A stretch of 38,795 nt of DNA from a virus. Under the pieces are notes generated by a model that worked only from the letters and a program-made list of their open reading frames with translations, did no database searches and was not told where the DNA came from. Below, piece by piece: positions 12,716 to 34,174 of the stretch. Both the position numbers and the translations under genes were made by a program. The stretch lies in the UHGV virus genome UHGV-0423091, one strand, 5' to 3'. Each line of letters begins with the position of its first letter. Position 1 is the first letter of the stretch.

Positions 12716-12791
12716 AGCAGGACGCCATTGCGATGACTTCATGCTGTAAACCCGTGCAGCCACGGAAGGCATAACTCATTGCTTCCAGTTC

Positions 12792-12815
12792 GCCCGGTTC
12801 GCCGGGCATTTTTTT
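12792..12815 (+). terminator. second intrinsic terminator (GCCCGG-UUCG-CCGGGC plus T7)
   Basis: 6-bp GC stem with UUCG tetraloop followed by seven T. Confidence 0.55.
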
Positions 12816-12831
12816 GCTTGATGACCGCAAA

Positions 12832-12849
12832 TTACCTTAAAGGTATAAT
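12832..12849. promoter_or_regulatory. operator-like site TTACC-ttaaa-GGTAt overlapping a perfect TATAAT (12844-12849) just upstream of the moron gene
   Basis: One-mismatch copy of the dispersed palindrome; consensus -10 hexamer. Confidence 0.4.
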
Positions 12850-12850
12850 C

Positions 12851-13669
12851 ATGAAAAACTTCAAGGTAATTAGCATGTTTGAATCGTTCAAAGAGCTGTT
12901 TTTATCTACTGCCAATACTGCCGTGAATCGAGCCAAAAACCCTGTGCTTGGTGCTTTTGTTATGTCCTGGTGCGCCTTCAACTGGAAATCAATTCTTTAT
13001 CTATTTTTTAGCAAATCAAACATAATAGATAAAATTTCATATATCTCAGATAACAGCACATGGAAAACTGTTATGTTTTATCCATGCTTATCTGTAATTG
13101 CTATCTGCTGCCTATTACCATGGGTAAACAATATCATTAACGTATGGCAAGCAAAGCCTCTTGATAATAATGACTCAATCGAAAATCACCTGAAGGCAAG
13201 AAAAATCCAGCGTGAAACAAGACTGCAGAGGTTATTGGCTAAAAAAGATGTTACATACGACAAAGTTAAGACTGGCGCGGAAAAAGACATCCAAGAGATG
13301 AAAGAAGAGATTATTCGATCAAAGAATAGTATGGGGGAATTGACTGCCGAGTTGAAAGCTAAAGATGACGAATTGAGATCCGCCAGTGCTCAGTTAGCAG
13401 CTCTAAATCATTCATTAAAAGAGATATCGGAAACTCTTGGAAGAATGAATGAGGCATATAAGACCCTCCAAAATGATTTCGACGAATACAAACTCAAATA
13501 CCCTGAAAAATCTCAAATAAAAAGCCTTGAACTTGGCAACGGCCAAACAATTAGCAACTTTTTGGAGCAACACAACTTATCCGGATTAAAATCTGGTAAG
13601 CCAAACGTTTTTAATAACTTTGGTGTTCTATCTGGATTATCAGGTTTCGAGGATAAAAATAAAGACTAA
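12851..13669 (+). CDS. moron: membrane plus coiled-coil protein, 272 aa; candidate superinfection-exclusion or abortive-infection factor
   Basis: Track ORF trimmed to ATG 12851; two predicted transmembrane segments then a long charged helical region; AT-rich; antisense to and converging on the terminase gene. Confidence 0.65.
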   Translation: MKNFKVISMFESFKELFLSTANTAVNRAKNPVLGAFVMSWCAFNWKSILYLFFSKSNIIDKISYISDNSTWKTVMFYPCLSVIAICCLLPWVNNIINVWQAKPLDNNDSIENHLKARKIQRETRLQRLLAKKDVTYDKVKTGAEKDIQEMKEEIIRSKNSMGELTAELKAKDDELRSASAQLAALNHSLKEISETLGRMNEAYKTLQNDFDEYKLKYPEKSQIKSLELGNGQTISNFLEQHNLSGLKSGKPNVFNNFGVLSGLSGFEDKNKD

Positions 13670-19636: not shown

Positions 19637-20433
19637 GCTTCAGGGCTGTTCCAGTGCGGAACGTTGTTATCAGGTAATGTTGATTGCTTCTGTCTGCTAA
19701 TCTGCAGCCGCCTTGCCAGCTTCTGCTCCCACTGCGCCTGATGGTATGCCTTACCCTCAGCCATCCAGTAAATTCTGAACTCTGCAAGTTCCTGTGCCGT
19801 TGGCAGACTGTCCAGGTAGATCCCCTGCAATGAGCTTTTCCGAAGAAAGTCATCTGATGGTTGCCATTGTTCATGCATGACAAATTTGCCTAATTGCCCT
19901 GGCCCACCAGGAGGAACAAAGTTATTCATCACGGCGTTGTTTGCGCCGGGGTCATGAGGCACAGAATCCCCGCTTTTTGTCCTGCTCTCCCTCTCTTGGT
20001 TAAATGACTGGTTATATGACTGGTTCTGGATCCCGTTTTTGGGATCATTCAACATCCCGTTTTTGGGATCATTCAACATCCCGTTTTTGGGTATATTCCC
20101 GTTTTCGGTAACATTACCGTTTTCGGGTTCATTACCCCCTTCCCGGTTGCCTTTAATGTTCCCGTTTTTGGTTATATTAAGAGAGAAAACCCGCACTCTT
20201 TTCGTCGCTCCCTTTCTCTCTCCGGTATCTGAAATAAGCCCCATTTTCATGAGCGATATAAGCCCGGCCTGCACGGTTTTTTTATTCAGGCAAGTGTCTT
20301 TAACGAGGCGTTCTATGCTGGGGTAGCAGAGGTTATATTCATCGGCTCTGTCAGCCATCGAGAGCAGTATGAGCTTTAATGACGAGCTACCTGGATCTGT
20401 CTCCCAGGCCCAATCTGTTGCATGTCTGCTCAT
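19618..20433 (-). CDS. replication initiator, lambda O-like role, 271 aa
   Basis: Immediately upstream of the P-like gene; N-terminal HTH-like region; iteron array embedded in the coding sequence. Confidence 0.65.
   Translation of the reverse strand: MSRHATDWAWETDPGSSSLKLILLSMADRADEYNLCYPSIERLVKDTCLNKKTVQAGLISLMKMGLISDTGERKGATKRVRVFSLNITKNGNIKGNREGGNEPENGNVTENGNIPKNGMLNDPKNGMLNDPKNGIQNQSYNQSFNQERESRTKSGDSVPHDPGANNAVMNNFVPPGGPGQLGKFVMHEQWQPSDDFLRKSSLQGIYLDSLPTAQELAEFRIYWMAEGKAYHQAQWEQKLARRLQISRQKQSTLPDNNVPHWNSPEAWEDFL
20031..20177. repeat. iteron array (candidate origin of replication) inside the O-like gene
   Basis: Seven direct repeats with core TCCCGTTTT(T/C)GG: two identical 24-mers (20031-20054, 20055-20078), three 18-mers (20079-20132), a degenerate copy and a final copy at 20160-20177. 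Confidence 0.7.
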
Positions 20434-20448
20434 GATTAATCTCCGCTA

Positions 20449-20649
20449 TCAGCTTGAATGTTGTGGGGAGGAATTAATCATGATCTGCTTAATCTCTGCC
20501 CTGATACGACGGTTTGATTCCATGGTGCACTCAACACAGTGTCCGTTGTAAACCCAGCGTTCACTGTCATGTCCGTGCTTACATGTTTTTCCGGTGTAGT
20601 AGCGTTTAAGTCCGCGCTTTGCGGCATCAATACGTGTAATGATTTCCAT
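20449..20649 (-). CDS. small Cys/His-containing protein, 66 aa (CII-position gene, function unknown)
   Basis: Track ORF trimmed to ATG 20649; CKHGH...CVEC motif; sits between the Cro-like and O-like genes. Confidence 0.4.
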   Translation of the reverse strand: MEIITRIDAAKRGLKRYYTGKTCKHGHDSERWVYNGHCVECTMESNRRIRAEIKQIMINSSPQHSS

Positions 20650-20729
20650 GGTAAGCCCTGTTATTAGTATTGGGATTACGGTCATTTTGTGCTGACACAA
20701 AAAAAATATCAACCAGATTTGGTTTTTTA

Positions 20730-20744
20730 TTACCTTTGAGGTAC
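20730..20744. promoter_or_regulatory. operator-like site TTACC-tttga-GGTAc
   Basis: One-mismatch palindrome between the post-cro terminator and the 66-aa gene. Confidence 0.4.
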
Positions 20745-20754
20745 GAATAGATAT

Positions 20755-20777
20755 GAAAAGACCGCCGGGTGGCGGTC
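20755..20777 (-). terminator. intrinsic terminator just downstream of the Cro-like gene (tR1-like position)
   Basis: 7-bp stem GACCGCC/GGCGGTC with 4-nt loop followed by TTTT on the minus strand. Confidence 0.5.
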
Positions 20778-20799
20778 TACAGAGGGTTGTAGCTGGATA

Positions 20800-21030
20800 T
20801 CATGAGTAGAAGAAGTATGCCAGTTCTGCTTTTGAGCGCAGCCATTGTCTTGTTTTACAGGCTTTAAAAAGCCCATTCATCAATACTTTACCTGGCATTT
20901 TGCGCTTACCTGTTAAGTGAGTCTGGATATAGTGACTCGTCGTTCCGGCTTCCTGTGCGAAGGCTTCACGCTCATCCGGAGTAAGTGCAAGCCAGTGCTT
21001 TTTGAAATCGAAATGTCCGTTATCGCTCAT
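20800..21030 (-). CDS. Cro-like HTH regulator, 76 aa
   Basis: Divergent from the repressor gene across an operator-rich intergenic region; HTH-like segment FAQEAGTTSHYIQTHLTGKR. Confidence 0.5.
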   Translation of the reverse strand: MSDNGHFDFKKHWLALTPDEREAFAQEAGTTSHYIQTHLTGKRKMPGKVLMNGLFKACKTRQWLRSKAELAYFFYS

Positions 21031-21066
21031 AGCTATTGCCTGATATTTATTTCAGATAATAAATAT

Positions 21067-21129
21067 TCACCCATAAGGTAACAAAAATCAAGGATAGTTA
21101 CCTATGAGGTGCATTTACCTGTTGGGTAA
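21067..21129. promoter_or_regulatory. tripartite operator cluster with divergent promoters between the Cro-like and repressor genes
   Basis: Three palindrome copies: 21067-21081 TcACC-cataa-GGTAA, 21098-21112 TTACC-tatga-GGTgc, 21115-21129 TTACC-tgttg-GGTAA. Confidence 0.6.
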
Positions 21130-21184
21130 TATTGCTTTAAATTGAATCATCTACTGATTCATATATGAGGCGATTTTCCAGAAA

Positions 21185-21769
21185 ATGAAAAGTATCCAGG
21201 ACGTCCGCAGGCAAAATCTCAACGACTTGATCGACCGTGAATTCAATGGTGTTCAGACGCGGATGGCAGAAAAACTTGGAACTCAGGCAAATCTGGTAAA
21301 CCGCTGGGCTCTTGGCAAGAAGGTTATCGGCGACCAGGTTGCACGAAAAATTGAAGCTGCCGCCAATAAACCCCGTAACTGGCTTGATATTGATCGCTCG
21401 CTTTCTCAGGAGGGTTTTCAGCCTGTCGGCCCGAGCGATATAGGTCAGCTGGCGGCTCACAACCTGGAACGCTGGATGAGCGAAAGCCGCGACCTTTCAA
21501 CGCAGGGAAAACTACACCGCGCATCCGGCGTCGCCCAGGTGACAATCAGCCGCCTGTTAAACAATGAGGTCAGCGTTTCCATTTCCACCCTGGAGAATGT
21601 TGCATCCGCATTCGGGCGTCACGGCTATGAATTACTGATTCACCCGCACGACCCTGCGACCATCAACTATGATCGCTCGCGCTACGCATTGTTACCCGAA
21701 ACCGAGAAAGCAAAGATCGAAAGTTACATTGAATTTGTCATCAACCAGAACGAAAAAAACAAACAATAA
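21185..21769 (+). CDS. phage repressor (CI role), 194 aa, two HTH-like segments, no S24 peptidase domain
   Basis: Divergent from the Cro-like gene; HTH-like segments near residues 25-45 and 110-135; no Ala-Gly/Ser-Lys autocleavage module; no SD (leaderless-like start). Confidence 0.65.
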   Translation: MKSIQDVRRQNLNDLIDREFNGVQTRMAEKLGTQANLVNRWALGKKVIGDQVARKIEAAANKPRNWLDIDRSLSQEGFQPVGPSDIGQLAAHNLERWMSESRDLSTQGKLHRASGVAQVTISRLLNNEVSVSISTLENVASAFGRHGYELLIHPHDPATINYDRSRYALLPETEKAKIESYIEFVINQNEKNKQ

Positions 21770-21790
21770 AATCATATTTTTCAGTAAGTA

Positions 21791-21816
21791 AGCCGCCAGA
21801 AGGCGGCTTTTTTATT
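21791..21816 (+). terminator. rho-independent terminator after the repressor gene
   Basis: AGCCGCC-AGAA-GGCGGCT followed by TTTTTTATT. Confidence 0.75.
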
Positions 21817-21826
21817 GCCTATTCGA

Positions 21827-21903
21827 TTACCTAATGGGTAATTTTTTTAACTCATATCTATTGACATCAAACCAGATACGCATAATTATTACCTCAACGG
21901 TAA
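21827..21903. promoter_or_regulatory. second operator pair with sigma70-like promoter (TTGACA at 21861-21866) for the plus-strand recombination operon
   Basis: Perfect palindromes at 21827-21841 (TTACC-taatg-GGTAA) and 21889-21903 (TTACC-tcaac-GGTAA), the latter over the -10/start region. Confidence 0.55.
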
Positions 21904-21922
21904 CAGACCGAGGTAACAAGTT

Positions 21923-22075
21923 ATGCAGTGGAAAATCATCAACGGTTGGTACTGCGTTACTGCATGCGGATTCATGAGCTGGAAGTTCCGCACCTTACAG
22001 GAAGGCATTAAGTGGGCTTTCGTCAGCAAAGAAGCTCGCGATGTGGCCAACGATAACGAGATATGGGAGGGCTGA
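21923..22075 (+). CDS. small ORF, 50 aa, Cys/Trp-containing
   Basis: ATG 21923 with AGGT 6 nt upstream; below the 60-aa track cutoff; first ORF after the promoter. Confidence 0.3.
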   Translation: MQWKIINGWYCVTACGFMSWKFRTLQEGIKWAFVSKEARDVANDNEIWEG

Positions 22076-22077
22076 TA

Positions 22078-22377
22078 ATGAACGTTAATCAGCAGAAAAA
22101 TCTTCAAAAAATCATGCTGGCATTCGACAAGGACTACCGCCTGTCAGAACAGCTATATGACCGACAAGTTGAACTGATTGAGAGTATCCGGCTTCATCAA
22201 CTGGCATCAACTTTCGACGTTGTAACAGTTAAAGGCGTTCGCCAGGAAGTACTGGAGGCCGCTAAAGACAGCCCTGAGTTCGAAGAACTAATGGATGCCT
22301 ACCGGCGCGAGGCAATGGCAATTATCGCCCGCTGGGATCTGGCTGATCAGATTGATGGGCAGAGGGACGCGGCATGA
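22078..22377 (+). CDS. hypothetical early protein, 99 aa
   Basis: Track ORF 22063..22377 trimmed to ATG 22078 with GGGAGGG SD. Confidence 0.5.
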   Translation: MNVNQQKNLQKIMLAFDKDYRLSEQLYDRQVELIESIRLHQLASTFDVVTVKGVRQEVLEAAKDSPEFEELMDAYRREAMAIIARWDLADQIDGQRDAA

Positions 22378-23195
22378 ATCCGGGAATTTATTTCGATATC
22401 AGCAACGAGGACTACCACGCCGGTGACGGCGTGAGTAAGTCGCAGCTAGATATGGTGGCTAAGAACCCTGCCCTTCTGAAATGGGTGAAGGCTGCTCCGG
22501 AAGACGAAGAGAAGAAGTCTGCACTGGACATGGGTACTGCTCTGCACTGTCTGCTTCTGGAACCTGGAGAGTTTGACAAACGCTTCATCGTTTCACCGAA
22601 ATTCGATCGTCGGACAAAACAAGGTAAAGCTGACGAAGAGGCATTTATTCGTGATGTAGCGGATATGGGGATTTCGGTACTTGATGCAGAGCAGTGGCGA
22701 AAACTGGAGCTGATGCGTGATAGCGCAATGGCTCACCCGGCGGCACGCTGGATGTTGGAAGCACCTGGTTACTGCGAAGCATCAATGTACTGGAACGATG
22801 AAGATACGGGTGAGTTGTGCCGAATTCGTCCAGACAAATGGCTGAACGAGCACAACGTGATCGTCGACGTGAAAAAGGTTGCAGATATGGACCGTTTTGC
22901 ACGCCACATCGAGGAGTTCCGCTACCACGTGCAGGACGCAATGTACCGCGAAGGCGCAATGAGGGTTACTGGTCAGCCACATGGTTTTTTCTTTCTTGCC
23001 GTGAGCGAAAGCATTGATTGTGGTCGGTATCCGGTACGCGTGTTCGAGCTGGATGCGCCGGATGTCGATGCCGGGCACGCTCTGTTCCGCCGGGATCTGA
23101 ATACCTATCACGAATGCCGCATCAACGATGAGTGGGGCGGAGTGGAAATTATTAAACGCCCTGACTGGGCACGTAAACAGGATATGTACGTATGA
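22374..23195 (+). CDS. PD-(D/E)XK-type exonuclease (YqaJ/RecE-like recombination exonuclease), 273 aa
   Basis: Coupled to the downstream annealing-protein gene; IVDVKK-type nuclease motif. Confidence 0.6.
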   Translation: MNPGIYFDISNEDYHAGDGVSKSQLDMVAKNPALLKWVKAAPEDEEKKSALDMGTALHCLLLEPGEFDKRFIVSPKFDRRTKQGKADEEAFIRDVADMGISVLDAEQWRKLELMRDSAMAHPAARWMLEAPGYCEASMYWNDEDTGELCRIRPDKWLNEHNVIVDVKKVADMDRFARHIEEFRYHVQDAMYREGAMRVTGQPHGFFFLAVSESIDCGRYPVRVFELDAPDVDAGHALFRRDLNTYHECRINDEWGGVEIIKRPDWARKQDMYV

Positions 23196-25617: not shown

Positions 25618-26868
25618 TTATTCCCCCGCCATCCACTTCTCAAACTTCGACGGGGAGAACGGAATCAGATCCGTATGCTCCCCGTTAATCCAGGAATCAA
25701 TCATATCGGCCCACTGCTGCAACATGTAGGCGCGCTGTCTGGCGTATTCCGCTTTGTTATATACGGCGCGCACACCTTTCTGCTCATGTGCCAGAGCCTT
25801 TTCAATCCAGTCTGAAGGATAACCAGCCTCATGCAACAACGTACTGGCTGTACGGCGCATATCGTGTACGGTGAAGTCCTGAATATGCTCACCATCTTCA
25901 TTTATTATTTTCACCGTTCTGTCGATCAGAGAGTTCAGCGCGGCATTAGATAATGGCTTCCGGAAATTGTAACGACCAGGAACCAGATATTCACTTCCAC
26001 CAGCGCACATCTGCAACCCGACCAATATATCCTGTGCCTGTTTAGGCAGGTAAATAACGTGCGCCCGGCTTCCCTTCATACGGTCTGAAGGAATTGTCCA
26101 TGTCCATTTTTTAAAATCTATTTCATCCCACGTTGCATTGGTGAATTCGCCTTTACGAACCATAGTGATAAGCACCAGCTTTAAAGCCATTTTCATAGTG
26201 CCCATAGCGCCAATGGCATCCAACGTGCGGAAGAACAGGCCAATTTCTTCTGGTGTCAGTGTTCGCTCTCGTGGTTTAAATATGGCGATAGACGAAGGTT
26301 TAATGTCAGCCGCAGGATTAAACAAACCATGACCACGGTCATTGGCGTGACGGTATACGCTGCTGATGATCTCCCGGGCCTGCACTGCTGTTGCCCGGCC
26401 ACCGCGTTCGACAATCCGGTCACACAAATCACGAACCATCGATGTGGTAATTTCAGCCATCATTTTGTTGCCAAGAACCGGAAGTATGTCACGGTCGATC
26501 ACCGCCTGCTTCATTGCGCGGGTACTTTCAGCCAGGATGACGTGTTTCATATAACTGTCGGTATGTACCGCAAATGTCTCGGCACCACGAATCTTTTTGA
26601 TACCGTCACGTTTAGCCGCAGCCGGCGACTGGCCTGCTTTAAGCAGCTTCTTTGCAGCAATCAGTTCTTCCCGCGCTTCTGCCAGGCTGATACCGTCACG
26701 CCCATACTGCCCGATTACCAGTGTTTCGCGGCGACCGTTGATACGGTAGTCATAGCGAAACGAGACCGTACCTGACGTAAGCACAGCTACATACAGCCCG
26801 TCACGATCGGAAACTTTGTACAGTTTGTCCTGTGGCTTGAGGTTCTTTAATTTTGTATCGGTAAGCAC
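25618..26868 (-). CDS. tyrosine integrase, P4-type, 416 aa
   Basis: Size; N-terminal MLTDTKLKNLKP-type arm-binding region; C-terminal HDMRRT...LAHE...Y catalytic region. Confidence 0.85.
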   Translation of the reverse strand: MLTDTKLKNLKPQDKLYKVSDRDGLYVAVLTSGTVSFRYDYRINGRRETLVIGQYGRDGISLAEAREELIAAKKLLKAGQSPAAAKRDGIKKIRGAETFAVHTDSYMKHVILAESTRAMKQAVIDRDILPVLGNKMMAEITTSMVRDLCDRIVERGGRATAVQAREIISSVYRHANDRGHGLFNPAADIKPSSIAIFKPRERTLTPEEIGLFFRTLDAIGAMGTMKMALKLVLITMVRKGEFTNATWDEIDFKKWTWTIPSDRMKGSRAHVIYLPKQAQDILVGLQMCAGGSEYLVPGRYNFRKPLSNAALNSLIDRTVKIINEDGEHIQDFTVHDMRRTASTLLHEAGYPSDWIEKALAHEQKGVRAVYNKAEYARQRAYMLQQWADMIDSWINGEHTDLIPFSPSKFEKWMAGE

Positions 26869-28593: not shown

Positions 28594-28996
28594 CGTCTTT
28601 TCTCCCCGGAATTAAATCGCGTGGATTGTCTGAACGGTGGTAGAGCCATATACCAATACGCACAGCGACAATTGCTGACACGAATGCGCCAGCAGAGAAA
28701 ACAATACCTTTTTCAAAAGAGTCCTGCGTGATGGTAGGGATCAGGCTGGCTATGCCGATAAGAATTGATGCTGCTGGTTTGTAGAAAAGAAGTCCGCAGA
28801 GAAAGCTGAGCATCGACAAGAGTACGCGACGACGAATTGGATACTCTACCGCAGAGGTAACAAAAATTACCGCACCAGCAAGAGCACCGAGCGCCACCTC
28901 TGGCGGAACACCTACGATAACCGCAGCAAGAGAGCTCACACTAAGCCATTGATTTAAAGACTCAGTTGTTATGTTAACCGACATAGCACACACCAT
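28580..28996 (-). CDS. holin-like membrane protein, 138 aa, about four transmembrane segments
   Basis: First gene of the lysis cassette; overlaps the next membrane-protein gene by 14 bp. Confidence 0.5.
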   Translation of the reverse strand: MVCAMSVNITTESLNQWLSVSSLAAVIVGVPPEVALGALAGAVIFVTSAVEYPIRRRVLLSMLSFLCGLLFYKPAASILIGIASLIPTITQDSFEKGIVFSAGAFVSAIVAVRIGIWLYHRSDNPRDLIPGRKDDGNA

Positions 28997-29159
28997 TTTT
29001 TTTGTACATATCGAACCTCTTCACTTACAGATCACCACACACAACAAACCATATATGTTTAACTATCAGATATTCTGAAATAACTATCAATTCATTGGTT
29101 TTTGATGACAATATTCATAAACAACCATAAATGTAAGGCGGTTTATTAGTTGCCAAAAT

Positions 29160-31766
29160 TTATTTCCTGCAAACTCCAGATGATGTTAATCCATCAAAAA
29201 TAACCTGCACTCTGGCAATAACAACATCAACTCCAGAAGTCGTTTCACTTGCATAACCAAGTTTTATTTTAGATACAATATCCTGAGTAAGTTCAGATAT
29301 TTCAGTTTCTGCAATGTTACCAGAGGCCATGTGATTATCGTATGCCATAGAATGAATTCCATTATTGACATCGATTGAACTAGTATGTTTGTGAAAAATA
29401 GATGGGTTTACCTGAAACGAATTTGAACCGATAAGATCAGAAGATACTCCATTCATCACTGCAGTACAGCGTGGAATATTATTATCGGTTATTGTCATAT
29501 GCAGACGGTTACCAGTTAACCCCTCACCAAGTGTGACATAATACGCCAATTCTCCACCTGCATATTGTTTCCCCTCAACAATAACAGTAATCCCTCTTAA
29601 TTTCTGATTAGCTAGCAAAAACTTATTACTGTCTATATAGCATTTATTTGCGGAACCAAAAACAGCCCCTTCTAAAATATCTGATGAATAGGAATAAATA
29701 AGGTCACCTGAAACAAAGGAAAGAATATCAGATACGTTTCCTTTTGTAGATAAGTTAGGAGAATAGCTATTAACTATTTCATATTGTCCTGTGATAAAAT
29801 CAAGGTAAACGCCATCAGTTTTCATCTCTTTAAAGAAAATGCTATTAAAGCATCCATCAAGAACCGGTGGATATATTCTAGAGCTTGCATAAGCTGTTGG
29901 GTGATTCTTATTATTACCACTACCAGGCGAATAAACATCTTCGTTAGTCATTGACTTTTTAAGCTTAACAGGAATCATCGGCTGCATATCAATTTTGCAG
30001 TTCCCTGAACCACCGATGCGAGGATAAAATAAACCACCAAACCTTACAATATTACTACTGAATAGTATTTCGTTATCGTTAAGTGTTATCTCAACGAAGT
30101 TTCCAATAAGTTTAAATTCAACTGAAAACAAACCAAGTGGAGCAGATAATTTAACAATATTGCGCATAAAAACACCTACAGTCCCTGTTGATGCAGTATA
30201 GTGTGTGGTTTCAAAGGCAGAGCCTGTATATTTCAAGTTAATGAAATTATTATGGTATGAAGACAATTGAAATTGAATCCCAGAACTAAGGATTTCAATA
30301 TCTACAAATTGAATCCTTACGGAGTAAGCATATGATAAATCTTCATATTCATAAGGCAATGTAACATCTTTTGAAATAGTTGCCCTCACATAATTACCAG
30401 AAACCACATCAATCCCATCACGTACAGCATTAAAGTAACGATTAAAATCAATAAGCCCAGCGCCAACATACTGCGCATATGACCGAGTCCATCCTGCCAT
30501 TGCGTTTCGTCCATTCTGAGCTTCTAAACTGCTAAATTCAGAGTCACTTGTGGTACTTGATGGGAGGATATTTGTACAAAAAACAATTTCAGGCATTGAA
30601 GTAATATCATTCAGTTCAGCCATCAATTTAAAAAAAGTTTTCTGCGGGAAGTTACCAACATCCCAACCATCTCCGTCATTCATGCCAAAAGCAATAATAA
30701 CAACATCAGGGTTAATATCACGAATGTAATCAATCCAGCGTCTGTTCGTGTCTGAATACCATGGGTACTGTGAGTTATAAGAAGTAATTGCTGGTGTATC
30801 TTTTCCAAGGTCATAGTACCTCATTCCACCAATTGCTCTGTTAAATAAAGTAGAACTTGGGAATTTCTCTTGCAAAACTCTCTTAAGATGAGCGGCAAAA
30901 ATGCTTGATCGATCCACTGTGCTTATATTATATGGGGCACTTAAGCTGTCACCAACTAACACTATTTTTGAGTTAGGCCTTGATAATCTCTCAAGTGTTT
31001 TAGATGTGACTAAACTGCATGAATTAATGAACTGAGCACTATTTAGTGTCTGTTCAAGTGTATCACCAAATCTGGTACCAACGTATGATGATCCGTTGAC
31101 ACTTGCTAGCTTAAGGCATAAATCAGCAGTATCTGTAATTGAAAAAATAGGAACAGGACGTCCTAAACTGTCATACCCCTGAATTGAGTTTGCCCTAGAA
31201 GATGCTGATGCCATTTCGCTTACTATCTCAGGGAAGCGGAGTGTTTTAGATATGTTGCTGTTAATAACTCCTTTGATAGATGAGTCTGTATATTTCTTCG
31301 TGGAAGCGTCCTGAGGAAATAATGGATCATCAAGGTTACGAATACGATTGCCTAGTGCATCGTAGTAAGTGGCACTAAATGATGGTTTACGAAGAGCCAG
31401 CCGAGCCATGCTTTTGACTAACTGGATCAGCATCGTTAGCTTATCAAAAGCATCCTCATGCACTTCCGCAAAGAACTTACCCTGATTGCGCAGATCAGTT
31501 TCCTGTGTAACCGGTAGCTCTCGTGATATAGAAATCTTATAGCCATTGGCCAACGCCTTCGACAATATTACATTTCCACCATTGTATCCTCCGGCCCCGG
31601 TAACTATATAATCAGTATCAAGAGTCAGTACGGTGATATTTTCATGAATATCAACAACCTGCACAATCAAATCAGATTTATTGAAAACCCTAAAGGCATA
31701 CGGAAACGATGTCGTAACGCCGTTACCGGTGTATTCGTTGTGGTCAACTTCGGTTGAGACCGTCAT
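29160..31766 (-). CDS. tailspike / tail fibre with T7 gp17-like N-terminal anchor and central SGNH (GDSL) esterase-like domain, 868 aa
   Basis: N-terminus YTGNGVTTSFPYAFRVF...LIVQVV resembles the T7 tail-fibre anchor; GDSL block (IVLVGDSLS, residues ~268-276, DNA ~30939-30965) and GxND block (AFGMNDG, ~358-364); AT-rich C-terminal half; GGAG SD. Confidence 0.8.
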   Translation of the reverse strand: MTVSTEVDHNEYTGNGVTTSFPYAFRVFNKSDLIVQVVDIHENITVLTLDTDYIVTGAGGYNGGNVILSKALANGYKISISRELPVTQETDLRNQGKFFAEVHEDAFDKLTMLIQLVKSMARLALRKPSFSATYYDALGNRIRNLDDPLFPQDASTKKYTDSSIKGVINSNISKTLRFPEIVSEMASASSRANSIQGYDSLGRPVPIFSITDTADLCLKLASVNGSSYVGTRFGDTLEQTLNSAQFINSCSLVTSKTLERLSRPNSKIVLVGDSLSAPYNISTVDRSSIFAAHLKRVLQEKFPSSTLFNRAIGGMRYYDLGKDTPAITSYNSQYPWYSDTNRRWIDYIRDINPDVVIIAFGMNDGDGWDVGNFPQKTFFKLMAELNDITSMPEIVFCTNILPSSTTSDSEFSSLEAQNGRNAMAGWTRSYAQYVGAGLIDFNRYFNAVRDGIDVVSGNYVRATISKDVTLPYEYEDLSYAYSVRIQFVDIEILSSGIQFQLSSYHNNFINLKYTGSAFETTHYTASTGTVGVFMRNIVKLSAPLGLFSVEFKLIGNFVEITLNDNEILFSSNIVRFGGLFYPRIGGSGNCKIDMQPMIPVKLKKSMTNEDVYSPGSGNNKNHPTAYASSRIYPPVLDGCFNSIFFKEMKTDGVYLDFITGQYEIVNSYSPNLSTKGNVSDILSFVSGDLIYSYSSDILEGAVFGSANKCYIDSNKFLLANQKLRGITVIVEGKQYAGGELAYYVTLGEGLTGNRLHMTITDNNIPRCTAVMNGVSSDLIGSNSFQVNPSIFHKHTSSIDVNNGIHSMAYDNHMASGNIAETEISELTQDIVSKIKLGYASETTSGVDVVIARVQVIFDGLTSSGVCRK

Positions 31767-31870
31767 GTTAAATCTCCAGATAGTCGCAGCACCCGTTGCG
31801 CCGCATATCTGGTTATTCTATTACCTGAAAAACCATATATGTATAGAAAGACTATAAATACCAATAGATA

Positions 31871-31885
31871 TTACCTTTATGGTAA
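31871..31885. promoter_or_regulatory. operator-like palindrome TTACC-tttat-GGTAA
   Basis: Perfect copy in the divergent control region between the tailspike and antirepressor operons. Confidence 0.45.
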
Positions 31886-31924
31886 TTTGCAAAACGTGCT
31901 GGATAGCAAACAAATTATTTGATA

Positions 31925-31940
31925 CTGTATAAATATACAG
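31925..31940. promoter_or_regulatory. LexA (SOS) box CTGTATAAATATACAG
   Basis: Perfect CTGT-N8-ACAG with AT-rich spacer, flanked TA...TT, 22 bp upstream of ATG 31962. Confidence 0.7.
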
Positions 31941-31961
31941 TTATTGCATGGAGAAGATAAG

Positions 31962-33348: not shown

Positions 33349-33675
33349 ATGACAAAACTTGGATTCGTGATGAGAGGTCCGGTAAGAAGCGGAACTCATG
33401 CAAAGCGTAGCAAGAGTCGTATTTTTACTGGTAAGGTTGTAGCACGTAAATCAGCTATTGGCTCGTTCAATAGTGAAAATGCGGCATTGCGCCATATTTT
33501 TATCAGCACAAAGCCAAGAGCATCCGCTGATGTGCATACAATGACTATTCCTATCACAAAGAATATAAAGCGGATAAAAAAGCTCTCATCTGCAGAATCA
33601 AAAGAGATATCTTTCCGCCAGCTTAACTCATTAGAAACGCATATGAAGGAAGAGGAATTCGATGTTTTTGAGTGA
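33349..33675 (+). CDS. highly basic small protein, 108 aa (accessory module gene 1)
   Basis: GGAG SD 7 nt upstream; Lys/Arg-rich; AT-rich codon usage; overlaps the next gene by 14 bp. Confidence 0.5.
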   Translation: MTKLGFVMRGPVRSGTHAKRSKSRIFTGKVVARKSAIGSFNSENAALRHIFISTKPRASADVHTMTIPITKNIKRIKKLSSAESKEISFRQLNSLETHMKEEEFDVFE

Positions 33676-34174
33676 GTATAGCGGGAAGGTTATACCTACT
33701 GGTGAGTTTAAAACTGATGACTTTCTGATTTCGCTAAAAGATGCTTTTAAACAACACTGGCGTCATGGTCATCATCCTGATCTGGGAAAAGATACTCTTT
33801 TTGAAAGACCAGACGAAGTATTAGGTTTCCATCTCAGAAAGGTTCATGTCAATATTGGTGAATATGCATCATATTCATACTCATGTACTGAACAGTGTTG
33901 GGATGAGTGGTCATATGGATTGATTGATGAACAAGGAAATTACAGGCCAAAACCAACCAGTAACGCATATCTCATATATGCAGTCAATGAAATAAGAGAT
34001 GCAGCCTTACTAGCTTATTGGGACCCGCCCGCACACACCAAAGCTAACGCAAAAGTTTGGATGGATTCCGTATTGAATTTCACAAAATTATTTCATGAAC
34101 GAACGAATACAGCTCCACTTAGTAGAAATGTTTATCCGTGGGATTATTCGTACAAATCCAAAAAGCCTGCATAG
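33662..34174 (+). CDS. hypothetical protein, 170 aa, His/Trp/Tyr-rich (accessory module gene 2); loose by-eye resemblance to YafO-type toxins
   Basis: GAGG SD; translationally coupled to gene 1; resemblance is from memory and low-confidence. Confidence 0.5.
   Translation: MFLSEYSGKVIPTGEFKTDDFLISLKDAFKQHWRHGHHPDLGKDTLFERPDEVLGFHLRKVHVNIGEYASYSYSCTEQCWDEWSYGLIDEQGNYRPKPTSNAYLIYAVNEIRDAALLAYWDPPAHTKANAKVWMDSVLNFTKLFHERTNTAPLSRNVYPWDYSYKSKKPA

What the first reader, a model, noticed from the sequence alone, without database searches (positions are those of the whole stretch)
29160..31766. Tailspike carrying an SGNH/GDSL esterase-like domain with an AT-rich C-terminal module
The 868-aa tailspike has a T7 gp17-like N-terminal anchor, then clear GDSL (VLVGDSLS) and GxND (AFGMNDG) blocks of the SGNH hydrolase family. 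SGNH tailspikes (for example phage G7C gp63.1) deacetylate O-antigen rather than cleave glycosidic bonds. I could not find a canonical DxxH block; the best candidate region reads RDGIDV, so the catalytic His may be displaced or the domain inactive. The C-terminal ~400 codons are markedly AT-rich compared with the rest of the genome, suggesting a horizontally exchanged receptor-binding module.
Basis: partly seen in the sequence, partly recalled or inferred. Interest (0 to 1): 0.65.

Follow-up and report, generated by a model that had tools for sequence, protein, structure and literature searches.

The report
Prophage tailspike with split SGNH esterase
This is the single tailspike of an epsilon15-like E. 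coli prophage in which the usual sugar-cutting beta-helix is replaced by an acetyl-esterase (SGNH) domain whose catalytic histidine sits about 170 residues downstream of its usual place, after an inserted lectin-like domain; it belongs to a phage protein family with one experimentally proven O-antigen deacetylase, so it is a real but fairly ordinary feature.

The parts
29160..31766 (-). Tailspike gene, 868 aa plus stop codon. It is the only receptor-binding protein gene in the window.
   Evidence: ORF list. Full-length match to PHROG 17220, with tail fibre/spike PHROGs matching the N-terminus. The other large virion genes match head, ejection or tail-tube PHROGs.
31065..31766 (-). N-terminal particle-binding (anchor) domain, aa 1-234, of the epsilon15/Uetakevirus tailspike type.
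   Evidence: 67% identity to the Salmonella phage VB_ST_E15 tailspike, E=8e-101. 78-87% DNA identity to Uetakevirus-like phages over the first ~350-430 nt only. PDB Dpo31 N-terminus E=5.6e-24. T7 gp17 not significant.
30984..31064 (-). Short neck/linker, aa 235-261, between the anchor and the esterase.
   Evidence: It lies between the end of the epsilon15-type similarity and the first SGNH strand in the model. The boundary is approximate.
30414..30983 (-). SGNH esterase core, first segment, aa 262-451 (beta1-beta5 and their helices).
30942..30953 (-). Block I, GDSL (aa 272-275). Ser274 is the predicted nucleophile.
   Evidence: G272, D273 and S274 are invariant in 51 sequences. Coordinates verified.
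30825..30842 (-). Block II, NRAIGG (aa 309-314). A backbone Gly is the predicted oxyanion-hole donor.
   Evidence: At least 90% conserved in 51 sequences. Invariant in the five closest homologues.
30675..30686 (-). Block III, GMND (aa 361-364). Asn363 is the predicted oxyanion-hole residue.
   Evidence: G361, M362, N363 and D364 are invariant in 51 sequences.
30408..30422 (-). R-D-G-I-D (aa 449-453), a vestigial block V-like motif at the canonical position, with Asp where the His would be. Asp450 is a candidate catalytic acid (inferred).
   Evidence: R449, D450, G451 and D453 are invariant in 51 sequences. [RK]DGxD is found in most family representatives. In the model it sits at the end of the helix after beta5, immediately before the insert.
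29964..30413 (-). Inserted beta-sandwich, aa 452-601 (concanavalin A / LamG / CBM40-like jelly roll). Predicted carbohydrate-binding module inside the block V loop.
29832..29963 (-). SGNH core, second segment, aa 602-645: a short helix, the block V loop and the C-terminal helix.
   Evidence: Model helices at residues 354-358 and 371-386. Deleting the insert lets PF13472 extend from 155 to 173 of 178 and PF00657 from 173 to 203 of 208.
29895..29906 (-). Block V remnant, NHPT (aa 621-624). His622 is the predicted general base.
   Evidence: N621 and H622 are invariant in 51 sequences and in Possum gp66. A weak alignment to the D-A-L-H-P of solved SGNH protein 9kr0 places the family's Gly (Asn619 here) at the canonical Asp position.
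29163..29831 (-). C-terminal beta-sandwich domain, aa 646-868 (second lectin-like jelly roll). Predicted receptor-binding and/or trimerisation module.
   Evidence: All-beta model segment at residues 398-604. Foldseek tandem galectin/LamG matches. Shared by only about 10 of the best family representatives.
28940..31960 (.). Low-GC island (37.0% GC against 48-49% on both sides) covering the tailspike gene and both intergenic flanks. Likely a horizontally exchanged cassette.
   Evidence: Two-change-point likelihood fit and the composition profile.

Best explanation
The gene encodes the sole tailspike of an epsilon15-like (Uetakevirus-type) temperate podophage of E. coli.

Domain layout:
- An epsilon15-type N-terminal domain (aa 1-234) fixes the trimer to the tail.
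- The distal body is an SGNH acetyl-esterase (aa 262-451 and 602-645) rather than a beta-helix glycosidase.
- A lectin-like beta-sandwich (aa 452-601) is inserted into the esterase's block V loop.
- A second lectin-like beta-sandwich (aa 646-868) follows.

Proposed mechanism. The beta-sandwich domains bind a surface polysaccharide. Ser274 attacks an O-acetyl ester, activated by His622 as general base. The oxyanion hole is formed by the Ser274 backbone, a block II Gly (313/314) and Asn363. The canonical block V Asp is absent, because His-3 is Asn619. Catalysis therefore uses either a Ser-His dyad, as in CE2 esterases, or an Asp supplied by the invariant R449-D450-G-x-D453 motif on the other side of the insert. 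Removing acetyl groups lets the virion bind irreversibly or move down through the glycan layer without cutting the chain, as shown for the family member Possum gp66.

Status of each step.
- Shown here: the fold, the domain order, residue conservation, and homology to a proven deacetylase.
- Inferred: that this protein has activity, which residue is the catalytic acid, the identity of the substrate, and that the protein is a trimer.
For: - Conservation: G272/D273/S274, G361-D364, R449/D450/G451/D453 and N621/H622 are invariant in 51 sequences. The motif spacing is conserved in about 110 representatives. The family has 494 clusters at E<1e-3, most of them spanning core, insert and His.
- Block V assignment: the insert-deleted construct extends both GDSL Pfam profiles through block V. 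The insert-deleted family profile hits solved SGNH esterases by sequence (7ddy E=1.4e-6).
- Experimental anchor: Possum gp66 aligns over core, insert and His (BLASTP E=1e-34; Foldseek E=5.9e-32, TMq 0.57), shares all invariant residues, and removes the 2-O-acetyl group of rhamnose from its host's O-polysaccharide (PMC9569702).
- Precedent for lacking the block V Asp: Ser-His dyads in active SGNH enzymes of CE2, SsEst and NanS (PMC9487903).
- Only RBP: no other receptor-binding protein gene is present in the window.
Against: - No coordinates were available, so Ser274-His622 proximity was not measured. It rests on topology, profile alignment and conservation.
- The score gain from deleting the insert is small (about 3-4 bits), and the one sequence alignment reaching block V of a solved enzyme is weak.
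- Identity to the proven deacetylase is only 27%.
- The canonical D-x-x-H is not met.
- The substrate is unknown. The 37 lysogens carry four O-antigen clusters and at least three capsule region-2 types, only half of which include an O-acetyltransferase gene.
- A monomer model says nothing about the oligomeric state.
Confidence: 0.8

Rival explanations
1. Pseudo-esterase. The SGNH fold is kept only as a scaffold or carbohydrate-binding surface, the loss of the canonical D-x-x-H has inactivated it, and the protein works as a non-enzymatic adhesin through its lectin-like domains.
For: RDGID occupies the canonical block V position with Asp in place of His. There is no Asp at His622-3. Two lectin-like domains are present that could bind glycans on their own.
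Against: Ser274, the block II Gly, Asn363 and His622 are all invariant or nearly so across highly divergent relatives at 21-45% identity, which is hard to explain without catalysis. Possum gp66 has the same RDGxD ... NHP arrangement and is catalytically active on O-polysaccharide. Active SGNH enzymes without the block V Asp are known.
Confidence: 0.08
2. Hidden depolymerase. One of the concanavalin-like beta-sandwiches is a GH16-type or other glycanase, so the spike both deacetylates and cleaves the polysaccharide. The epsilon15 tailspike is reported to combine a cleaving body with a protruding esterase domain.
Against: Non-catalytic lectin/CBM/LamG folds score as well or better. Reading the sequence printed, neither beta-sandwich contains a GH16-type E-x-D-x-x-E motif. 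No glycosidase family appears in Pfam. Possum gp66 deacetylated its O-polysaccharide and left the backbone intact.
Confidence: 0.05
3. The esterase acts on a substrate other than a surface polysaccharide, for example lipids, lipoproteins or O-acetylated peptidoglycan during genome ejection. In that case it would not determine host recognition.
For: SGNH hydrolases include lipases and peptidoglycan O-acetylesterases (PMC9487903). The tailspike allele does not track any one O or K locus among lysogens.
Against: The protein sits at the position of the receptor-binding tailspike, on the epsilon15-type anchor, and is the only RBP. Its closest structural matches are carbohydrate esterases. It carries two lectin-like domains. 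Every characterised phage RBP with an SGNH domain acts on O-antigen or capsule.
Confidence: 0.05

Closest known systems
Pectobacterium phage Possum gp66 (Cbunavirus tail fibre, O-polysaccharide deacetylase; PMC9569702)
   Same: The catalytic module has the same family and architecture: GDS, NRAxGG, GMND, RDGxD, an inserted beta-sandwich of about 190 aa, then GGNGxNHP. BLASTP E=1e-34 over aa 258-648. Foldseek E=5.9e-32 over 567 columns. All invariant residues are shared. It is virion-borne and is an experimentally shown deacetylase.
   Different: Only 27% identity. It belongs to an N4-like lytic phage, has a different N-terminal adaptor (TSP1/Gp66_N-like, attached through gp67) and a different C-terminal domain. 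Its substrate, Rha2Ac in a Pectobacterium O-polysaccharide, need not be the substrate here.
Escherichia phage G7C gp63.1
   Same: A phage receptor-binding protein with an SGNH esterase followed by beta-sandwich domains. It deacetylates O-antigen instead of cleaving it (as cited). The overall logic of anchor, esterase and carbohydrate-binding domains is the same.
   Different: Its SGNH domain is uninterrupted (PF00657 positions 1-207 of 208 at aa 270-485) and is followed by the G7C_GBD and G7C_C domains, none of which are found here. Profile-profile comparison with this family is not significant (probability 1.1%). G7C is absent from the tblastn hits. It is part of a branched two-protein fibre, not a sole tailspike.
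Epsilon15-type tailspike (gp20; Salmonella phage VB_ST_E15 as the representative)
   Same: 67% identical over the N-terminal 234 aa. Same genome position in the same type of podophage. The 2026 preprint listed reports that the epsilon15 spike also carries an esterase domain.
   Different: The epsilon15 spike has a right-handed beta-helix body of 1,070 aa. Here everything after about aa 235 is replaced by the SGNH and lectin-like module, and no beta-helix appears in the model or in Pfam.
SGNH-domain receptor-binding proteins of Klebsiella prophages (PMC13123978) and the Acinetobacter phage Aristophanes gp41 deacetylase (PMC8471582)
   Same: Temperate or lytic phage RBPs that use an SGNH esterase instead of a depolymerase. 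Two of the Klebsiella proteins are active on p-nitrophenyl acetate. That study found SGNH RBPs less tied to one capsule locus than beta-helix depolymerases. The lack of O- or K-locus tracking seen here resembles that, although here it may simply reflect antigen switching after lysogeny.
   Different: Sequence relationship to this family was not tested here. Their hosts are capsulated Klebsiella and Acinetobacter. No inserted domain or displaced His is described in the passages read.
Carbohydrate esterases of the SGNH superfamily (AlAXEase 7ddy; acetyl-mannan esterase 6hfz; CE2 enzymes)
   Different: In those enzymes the beta-sandwich is appended, not inserted in the block V loop. They are soluble bacterial enzymes, not virion proteins.

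Membership tests
SGNH/GDSL hydrolase superfamily | Block I: G-D-S-(L) with the nucleophilic Ser after beta1 | tested here: met
   GDSL at aa 272-275. G, D and S are invariant in 51 homologues.
SGNH/GDSL hydrolase superfamily | [quoted passage not shown] | tested here: met
   NRAIGG at aa 309-314 is at least 90% conserved. GMND at aa 361-364 is invariant.
SGNH/GDSL hydrolase superfamily | Block V: D-x-x-H in the loop before the last helix | tested here: not met
   No D-x-x-H is present. The canonical position reads R-D-G-I-D (aa 449-453). The invariant His622 lies 169 residues later, after an inserted domain, with Asn619 (family consensus Gly) at His-3. The His is present but the motif is split. 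Active SGNH enzymes lacking the Asp exist.
SGNH/GDSL hydrolase superfamily | Three-layer alpha/beta/alpha fold with a five-stranded parallel sheet | tested here: met
SGNH/GDSL hydrolase superfamily | Esterase or acyl-hydrolase activity | not testable with these tools
   Needs purified protein. Indirect support only: the homologue Possum gp66 is active.
Possum gp66-like phage RBP deacetylases (split-SGNH family) | Significant similarity across the core, the inserted beta-sandwich and the post-insert His segment | tested here: met
   BLASTP E=1e-34 over query 4-394. Foldseek E=5.9e-32, TMq 0.57. tblastn E=9e-26.
Possum gp66-like phage RBP deacetylases (split-SGNH family) | Signature [RK]-D-G-x-D, then 175-205 aa, then G-x-x-x-N-H-P | tested here: met
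   RDGID at aa 449 and NHP at aa 621 give a spacing of 172 in the near-identical cluster representative P0005. The pattern is present in about 110 of 183 representatives and in gp66.
Possum gp66-like phage RBP deacetylases (split-SGNH family) | Removes O-acetyl groups from host surface polysaccharide without cleaving the backbone | not testable with these tools
   Shown for gp66 by NMR (PMC9569702). Not tested for this protein.
G7C gp63.1-type esterase tailspikes | Detectable homology to gp63.1 and its domain set (Tail_spike_N, Gp63_3rd_G7C, contiguous SGNH, G7C_GBD, G7C_C) | tested here: not met
   hhalign probability 1.1%. None of the G7C Pfam domains appears in this protein, whereas all appear in gp63.1. 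G7C is absent from the tblastn hits.
Epsilon15-type (Uetakevirus) tailspikes | N-terminal particle-binding domain | tested here: met
   67% identity over aa 1-234, E=8e-101.
Epsilon15-type (Uetakevirus) tailspikes | Right-handed parallel beta-helix depolymerase body | tested here: not met
   No beta-helix in the model of aa 255-868, none in Pfam, and similarity ends at about aa 234.
T7 gp17 tail-fibre N-terminal domain (PF03906) | Profile match above the gathering threshold, or significant pairwise similarity to T7 gp17 | tested here: not met
   PF03906 scores 14.7 bits against a cut-off of 25.2, covering profile positions 122-152 only. BLASTP against T7 gp17 gives E=0.15. Two weak co-linear patches, and PF03906 hits in some family members, leave a remote relationship possible.

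The most novel reading that the evidence does not exclude
The active site may be assembled across a domain insertion. On this reading an ancestral block V (D-G-x-H-P) was split into a first half that kept the Asp (R-D450-G-x-D453) and a second half that kept the His (N-H622-P), with a lectin-like beta-sandwich wedged between them. Glycan binding by the insert would then be coupled directly to the geometry of the catalytic triad. This would be an SGNH arrangement that none of the papers read here describes. A second, separate possibility is that the nearly invariant tailspike allele, found in lysogens with four O loci and at least three K loci, targets an acetylated glycan that does not depend on serotype.
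Probability: 0.25. Interest if true: 0.5.

Novelty: new member of a known kind. Interest (0 to 1): 0.3.

Why it matters
Esterase tailspikes are a less studied alternative to depolymerases for getting a phage through O-antigen or capsule. Recent work suggests they are common in prophages and less serotype-bound than beta-helix depolymerases.

This case adds three practical points.
- A literal search for D-x-x-H wrongly suggests that a large family of phage receptor-binding esterases is inactive (494 clusters at 50% identity). In this family the His lies after an inserted lectin-like domain.
- It gives a defined set of residues to mutate: S274, N363, D450, D453 and H622.
- It shows that an epsilon15-type podophage can rely on an esterase-only tailspike.

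It does not change any general concept, and the gene is already annotated as an SGNH/GDSL hydrolase in RefSeq.

Tried and rejected
- PDB sequence search with the native protein and with the native family profile found only N-terminal tailspike matches or nothing relevant. SGNH hits appeared only after the insert was removed from the profile.
- The AFDB fold library was not available. BFVD was used instead.
- The epsilon15 tailspike preprint could not be opened, so only its title and abstract lines are used. The E. coli O-antigen review holds no O102 structure and no supplements, so I could not check whether O102 is O-acetylated.
- Hypothesis 'the tailspike is specific for one O serogroup': rejected as untestable from lysogens. 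O102, O15, O17-family and O25 loci all occur. The O15/O17-family pair is a single clone whose O locus was swapped.
- Hypothesis 'all lysogens share one O-acetylated capsule': rejected. Three region-2 types split 9/9/15, with 4 lysogens having none, and all three occur within the O102 lineage.
- Hypothesis 'AT-richness is a property of the family': rejected. The anhysbys and Possum homologues are not AT-rich relative to their genomes.
- The promoter and terminator scan around the gene showed no enrichment over shuffles.
- No O-antigen-modifying moron such as an acyltransferase or gtr gene was detected among the accessory ORFs scanned next to the tailspike or in the 13-kb low-GC island.
- The Phage BP9 match (100% identity over 320 nt) was examined and set aside as a probable chimeric record.
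Full report
**What is there.** The window carries one long ORF at 29160..31766 on the minus strand, encoding 868 aa. The window itself looks like a circularly permuted genome of an epsilon15-like temperate podophage. An integrase is at 25618-26868, a lysis cassette sits just downstream of the ORF, and virion genes wrap around the window ends. The ORF is the only gene with tail-fibre or tail-spike matches.

**It is already catalogued.** PHROG 17220 matches it end to end. In 37 of 5,426 complete E. coli genomes a copy at least 99.5% identical sits in a chromosomal prophage next to yfgI, and NCBI's pipeline names it 'SGNH/GDSL hydrolase family protein'.

**N-terminal domain.** Residues 1-234 are 67% identical (E=8e-101) to the N-terminus of an epsilon15-type tailspike, a 1,070-aa beta-helix protein. 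DNA similarity to other Uetakevirus-like phages stops after the first 350-430 nt of the gene. The T7 gp17 label is not supported at significance. Pfam PF03906 scores 14.7 bits against a threshold of 25.2, and BLASTP against T7 gp17 gives E=0.15 with only two short co-linear patches. The anchor is best called epsilon15 gp20-like, with at most a remote link to the T7 fibre domain.

**Esterase domain.** Pfam Lipase_GDSL_2 matches aa 271-447 above its gathering threshold, but the match stops at profile position 155 of 178, short of block V. I collected 53 homologues and aligned 50 of them with aa 255-868. The following residues are invariant: G272/D273/S274, G361/M362/N363/D364, R449/D450/G451/D453, and N621/H622. 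The block II stretch NRAIGG is at least 90% conserved.

An AlphaFold2 model built from this alignment is confident (mean pLDDT 91.1, pTM 0.86). Its domain order is:
- five beta-alpha units of an SGNH core (aa 267-450);
- an all-beta domain (aa 452-601);
- a short helix and a loop carrying N621/H622;
- a long helix (aa 625-640);
- a second all-beta domain (aa 650-868).

**The missing block V.** RDGID sits where block V normally is, directly after the helix that follows beta5, with Asp in the place of His. From my memory of the E. coli TesA sequence, which I did not check with a tool, its block V reads D-D-G-I-H-P, and R-D-G-I-D-V lines up with that position for position.

The invariant His622 lies 169 residues further on, just before the last SGNH helix. 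Four results identify it as the block V His:
- It is invariant, together with Asn621.
- The topology matches.
- When the insert is deleted in silico, PF13472 extends from profile position 155 to 173 of 178 (43.4 to 46.5 bits) and PF00657 from 173 to 203 of 208 (27.4 to 31.6 bits). Both alignments then end just past His622.
- A family profile built without the insert hits solved SGNH esterases by sequence (7ddy E=1.4e-6, 6hfz E=5e-5). In the one weak alignment that reaches block V, N-H-P pairs with the H-P of D-A-L-H-P.

In that alignment the canonical Asp position is the family's Gly, which is Asn619 in this protein. So the canonical acid is absent. Either the enzyme uses a Ser-His dyad, as documented for CE2 esterases, SsEst and NanS (PMC9487903), or the invariant Asp450 or Asp453 on the other side of the insert supplies the acid. 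I could not measure distances because the tools return no coordinates, so this point stays an inference.

**A family feature, and an active family.** An exhaustive search found 494 clusters (50% identity level) at E<1e-3 and 281 at E<1e-10. Most matches span query positions 13-385, which cover the core, the insert and the His. In about 110 of the 183 sequences at hand the pattern [RK]DGxD, then 175-205 residues, then N-H-P recurs. N-terminal adaptors vary widely: T7-tail-like, TSP1/Gp66_N, tail-collar and pectate-lyase-3. So the module is shuffled among phage types.

Only nine of 50,697 deposited phage records carry it: Escherichia phage anhysbys, a Kayfunavirus, the Pectobacterium N4-like phages Arno152, Horatius and Possum, and a fragment in BP9. 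The Possum hit lies in gp66, which its authors showed by NMR to remove the 2-O-acetyl group of rhamnose from the host O-polysaccharide, leaving the deacetylated polymer (PMC9569702). gp66 aligns with this protein from the GDS block to beyond the His (BLASTP E=1e-34; Foldseek E=5.9e-32 over 567 columns) and shares every invariant residue. The unusual block V is therefore compatible with activity, and the 'inactive domain' option is unlikely.

**Relation to G7C gp63.1.** gp63.1 has an uninterrupted SGNH domain (PF00657 positions 1-207 of 208) followed by its own G7C_GBD and G7C_C domains. None of these occurs here. A profile-profile comparison is not significant (probability 1.1%), and G7C is not among the tblastn hits. 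The two proteins work alike and share a superfamily, but this protein is not a member of the gp63.1 family.

**Composition and exchange.** The gene is 37.7% GC against 49.1% for the rest of the window. A two-change-point fit puts the low-GC island at 28940-31960, which is the whole gene with both intergenic flanks. Within the gene, GC3 falls from about 0.4 in codons 1-200 to 0.19-0.30 afterwards. The homologous genes of anhysbys and Possum are not AT-rich relative to their neighbours, so the bias belongs to this allele and not to the family.

I compared four lysogens representing three lineages.

| Region compared | Divergence between lineages |
|---|---|
| Chromosomal flanks | 0.9-1.2% |
| Prophage structural genes | 0.8-1.65% |
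| Tailspike | 0.19-0.42% |

Fisher p values for the tailspike against the other two regions range from 9e-12 to 6e-3. The window's own tailspike differs from that of isolate 624 at 3 of 2,607 positions, while the genomes differ by about 1.7% where they align. None of the allele differences touches a catalytic residue. The spike cassette has therefore spread among related prophage backbones more recently than those backbones diverged, or it is under much stronger constraint.

**What is the substrate?** I tried to infer it from the lysogens and could not.
- O-antigen loci: O102 in the majority (at least 9 lysogens appear among the 60 rows shown out of the 107 O102-wzy genomes); O15; an O17/O44/O73/O77/O106-family locus; and O25 with a frameshifted wzy.
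- The O15 and O17-family strains are one clone (flank divergence 0.02%, identical prophage). That difference reflects O-locus replacement after lysogeny, not independent infection.
- Capsule loci next to yghD also vary. Nine lysogens have a group 2 locus with a CatB-type O-acetyltransferase and a 1,114-aa polymerase-like enzyme. Nine have a group 3-type locus with an AlgX-related O-acetyltransferase. Fifteen have a group 3-type locus with a methyltransferase-containing enzyme. Four have none of these markers.
- All three capsule types occur inside the O102 lineage.

So both surface-antigen loci change under a constant tailspike, and the genotype of a lysogen cannot name the receptor. Half of the lysogens do encode a capsule O-acetyltransferase, which keeps an acetylated capsule on the candidate list beside O-antigen. 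A Klebsiella prophage study likewise found SGNH-domain RBPs to be less tied to one capsule locus than beta-helix depolymerases (PMC13123978).

**Verdict.** This is an esterase tailspike, probably active, in a horizontally exchanged cassette. It is a new member of a known kind, the Possum gp66-like split-SGNH receptor-binding esterases, and databases already label it an SGNH hydrolase. The one point not described in the papers I read is the insertion of a lectin-like domain inside the block V loop, with conserved half-motifs on either side. If Asp450 or Asp453 completes the triad across the insert, that would be a modestly interesting variation on SGNH catalysis. Interest is low to moderate.

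Noticed in passing
window 29160-29479; locus L002 (PP488543.1, Escherichia phage BP9, record 120362-130681): The last 320 nt of the tailspike gene are 100% identical to a stretch of the 138-kb Vequintavirus BP9. In that record it sits beside the same lysis cassette, an integrase and an IS2 InsA gene, wedged next to rIIA/rIIB. This looks like a prophage fragment captured with an IS, or an assembly chimera in the deposited record.
   Followed up: partly
loci L001, L012, L013, L014 (lysogen chromosomes), tailspike at locus positions 20001-22607: Between three host lineages the tailspike differs by 0.19-0.42%, while neighbouring prophage structural genes differ by 0.8-1.65%, the lysis genes by up to 4.1%, and the chromosomal flank by 0.9-1.2%. 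The spike cassette is several-fold more conserved than its own prophage backbone.
   Followed up: yes
L007 (NZ_CP063492.1) and L011 (NZ_CM163380.1) O-antigen loci; L012 and L013 prophage loci: Strains EF5-18-41 (chicken, Laos) and A287 (swine, South Korea) are near-identical around the prophage (3 differences in 16 kb of flank, 0 in the prophage). They nonetheless carry different O-antigen clusters (O17/O44/O73/O77/O106-family vs O15) and different capsule region-2 markers. This is a clean example of recent surface-antigen switching.
   Followed up: partly
L021 (NZ_CP163448.1, 2389536-2404317), L024 (NZ_CP033884.1), L025 (NZ_OW967003.1): Within the O102 lineage three different capsule loci occupy the pheV/yghD site. 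One is a group 2 locus with a CatB-like O-acetyltransferase and a 1,114-aa HAD-domain polymerase-like enzyme. The other two are group 3-type loci, one with an AlgX-related O-acetyltransferase and one with a 909-aa SAM-methyltransferase-domain protein.
   Followed up: partly
window 12779-13669 (+), low-GC island around 13001-13500 (36% GC): A second AT-rich island holds a 296-aa ORF on the opposite strand to its neighbours. It has no Pfam match and matches only unknown-function PHROGs (phrog_4780). It is probably a moron of unknown function.
   Followed up: partly
window 33349-34174 (+): Two small overlapping ORFs lie downstream of a BRO-N/Ash-family gene. The second has a weak YafO-toxin match and is annotated in lysogens as a type II toxin-antitoxin YafO-family toxin. 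The accessory region between the tailspike and the virion genes differs between lysogens (DUF4760 vs YafO vs extra hypothetical genes).
   Followed up: no
L010 (NZ_OW967003.1, 92800-93862): The O25 lysogen whose tailspike is closest to the window's has a frameshifted O25 wzy and a frameshifted wcaM, so it may be rough or semi-rough.
   Followed up: no
L004 (Escherichia phage anhysbys, 3740-5815): The closest homologue in a cultured phage (44% identity, annotated 'hypothetical protein') sits in the multi-fibre cluster of a 149-kb Phapecoctavirus isolated on E. coli K-12, a strain that makes no O-antigen (my own knowledge). This hints that family members can be carried as one of several RBPs.
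   Followed up: no
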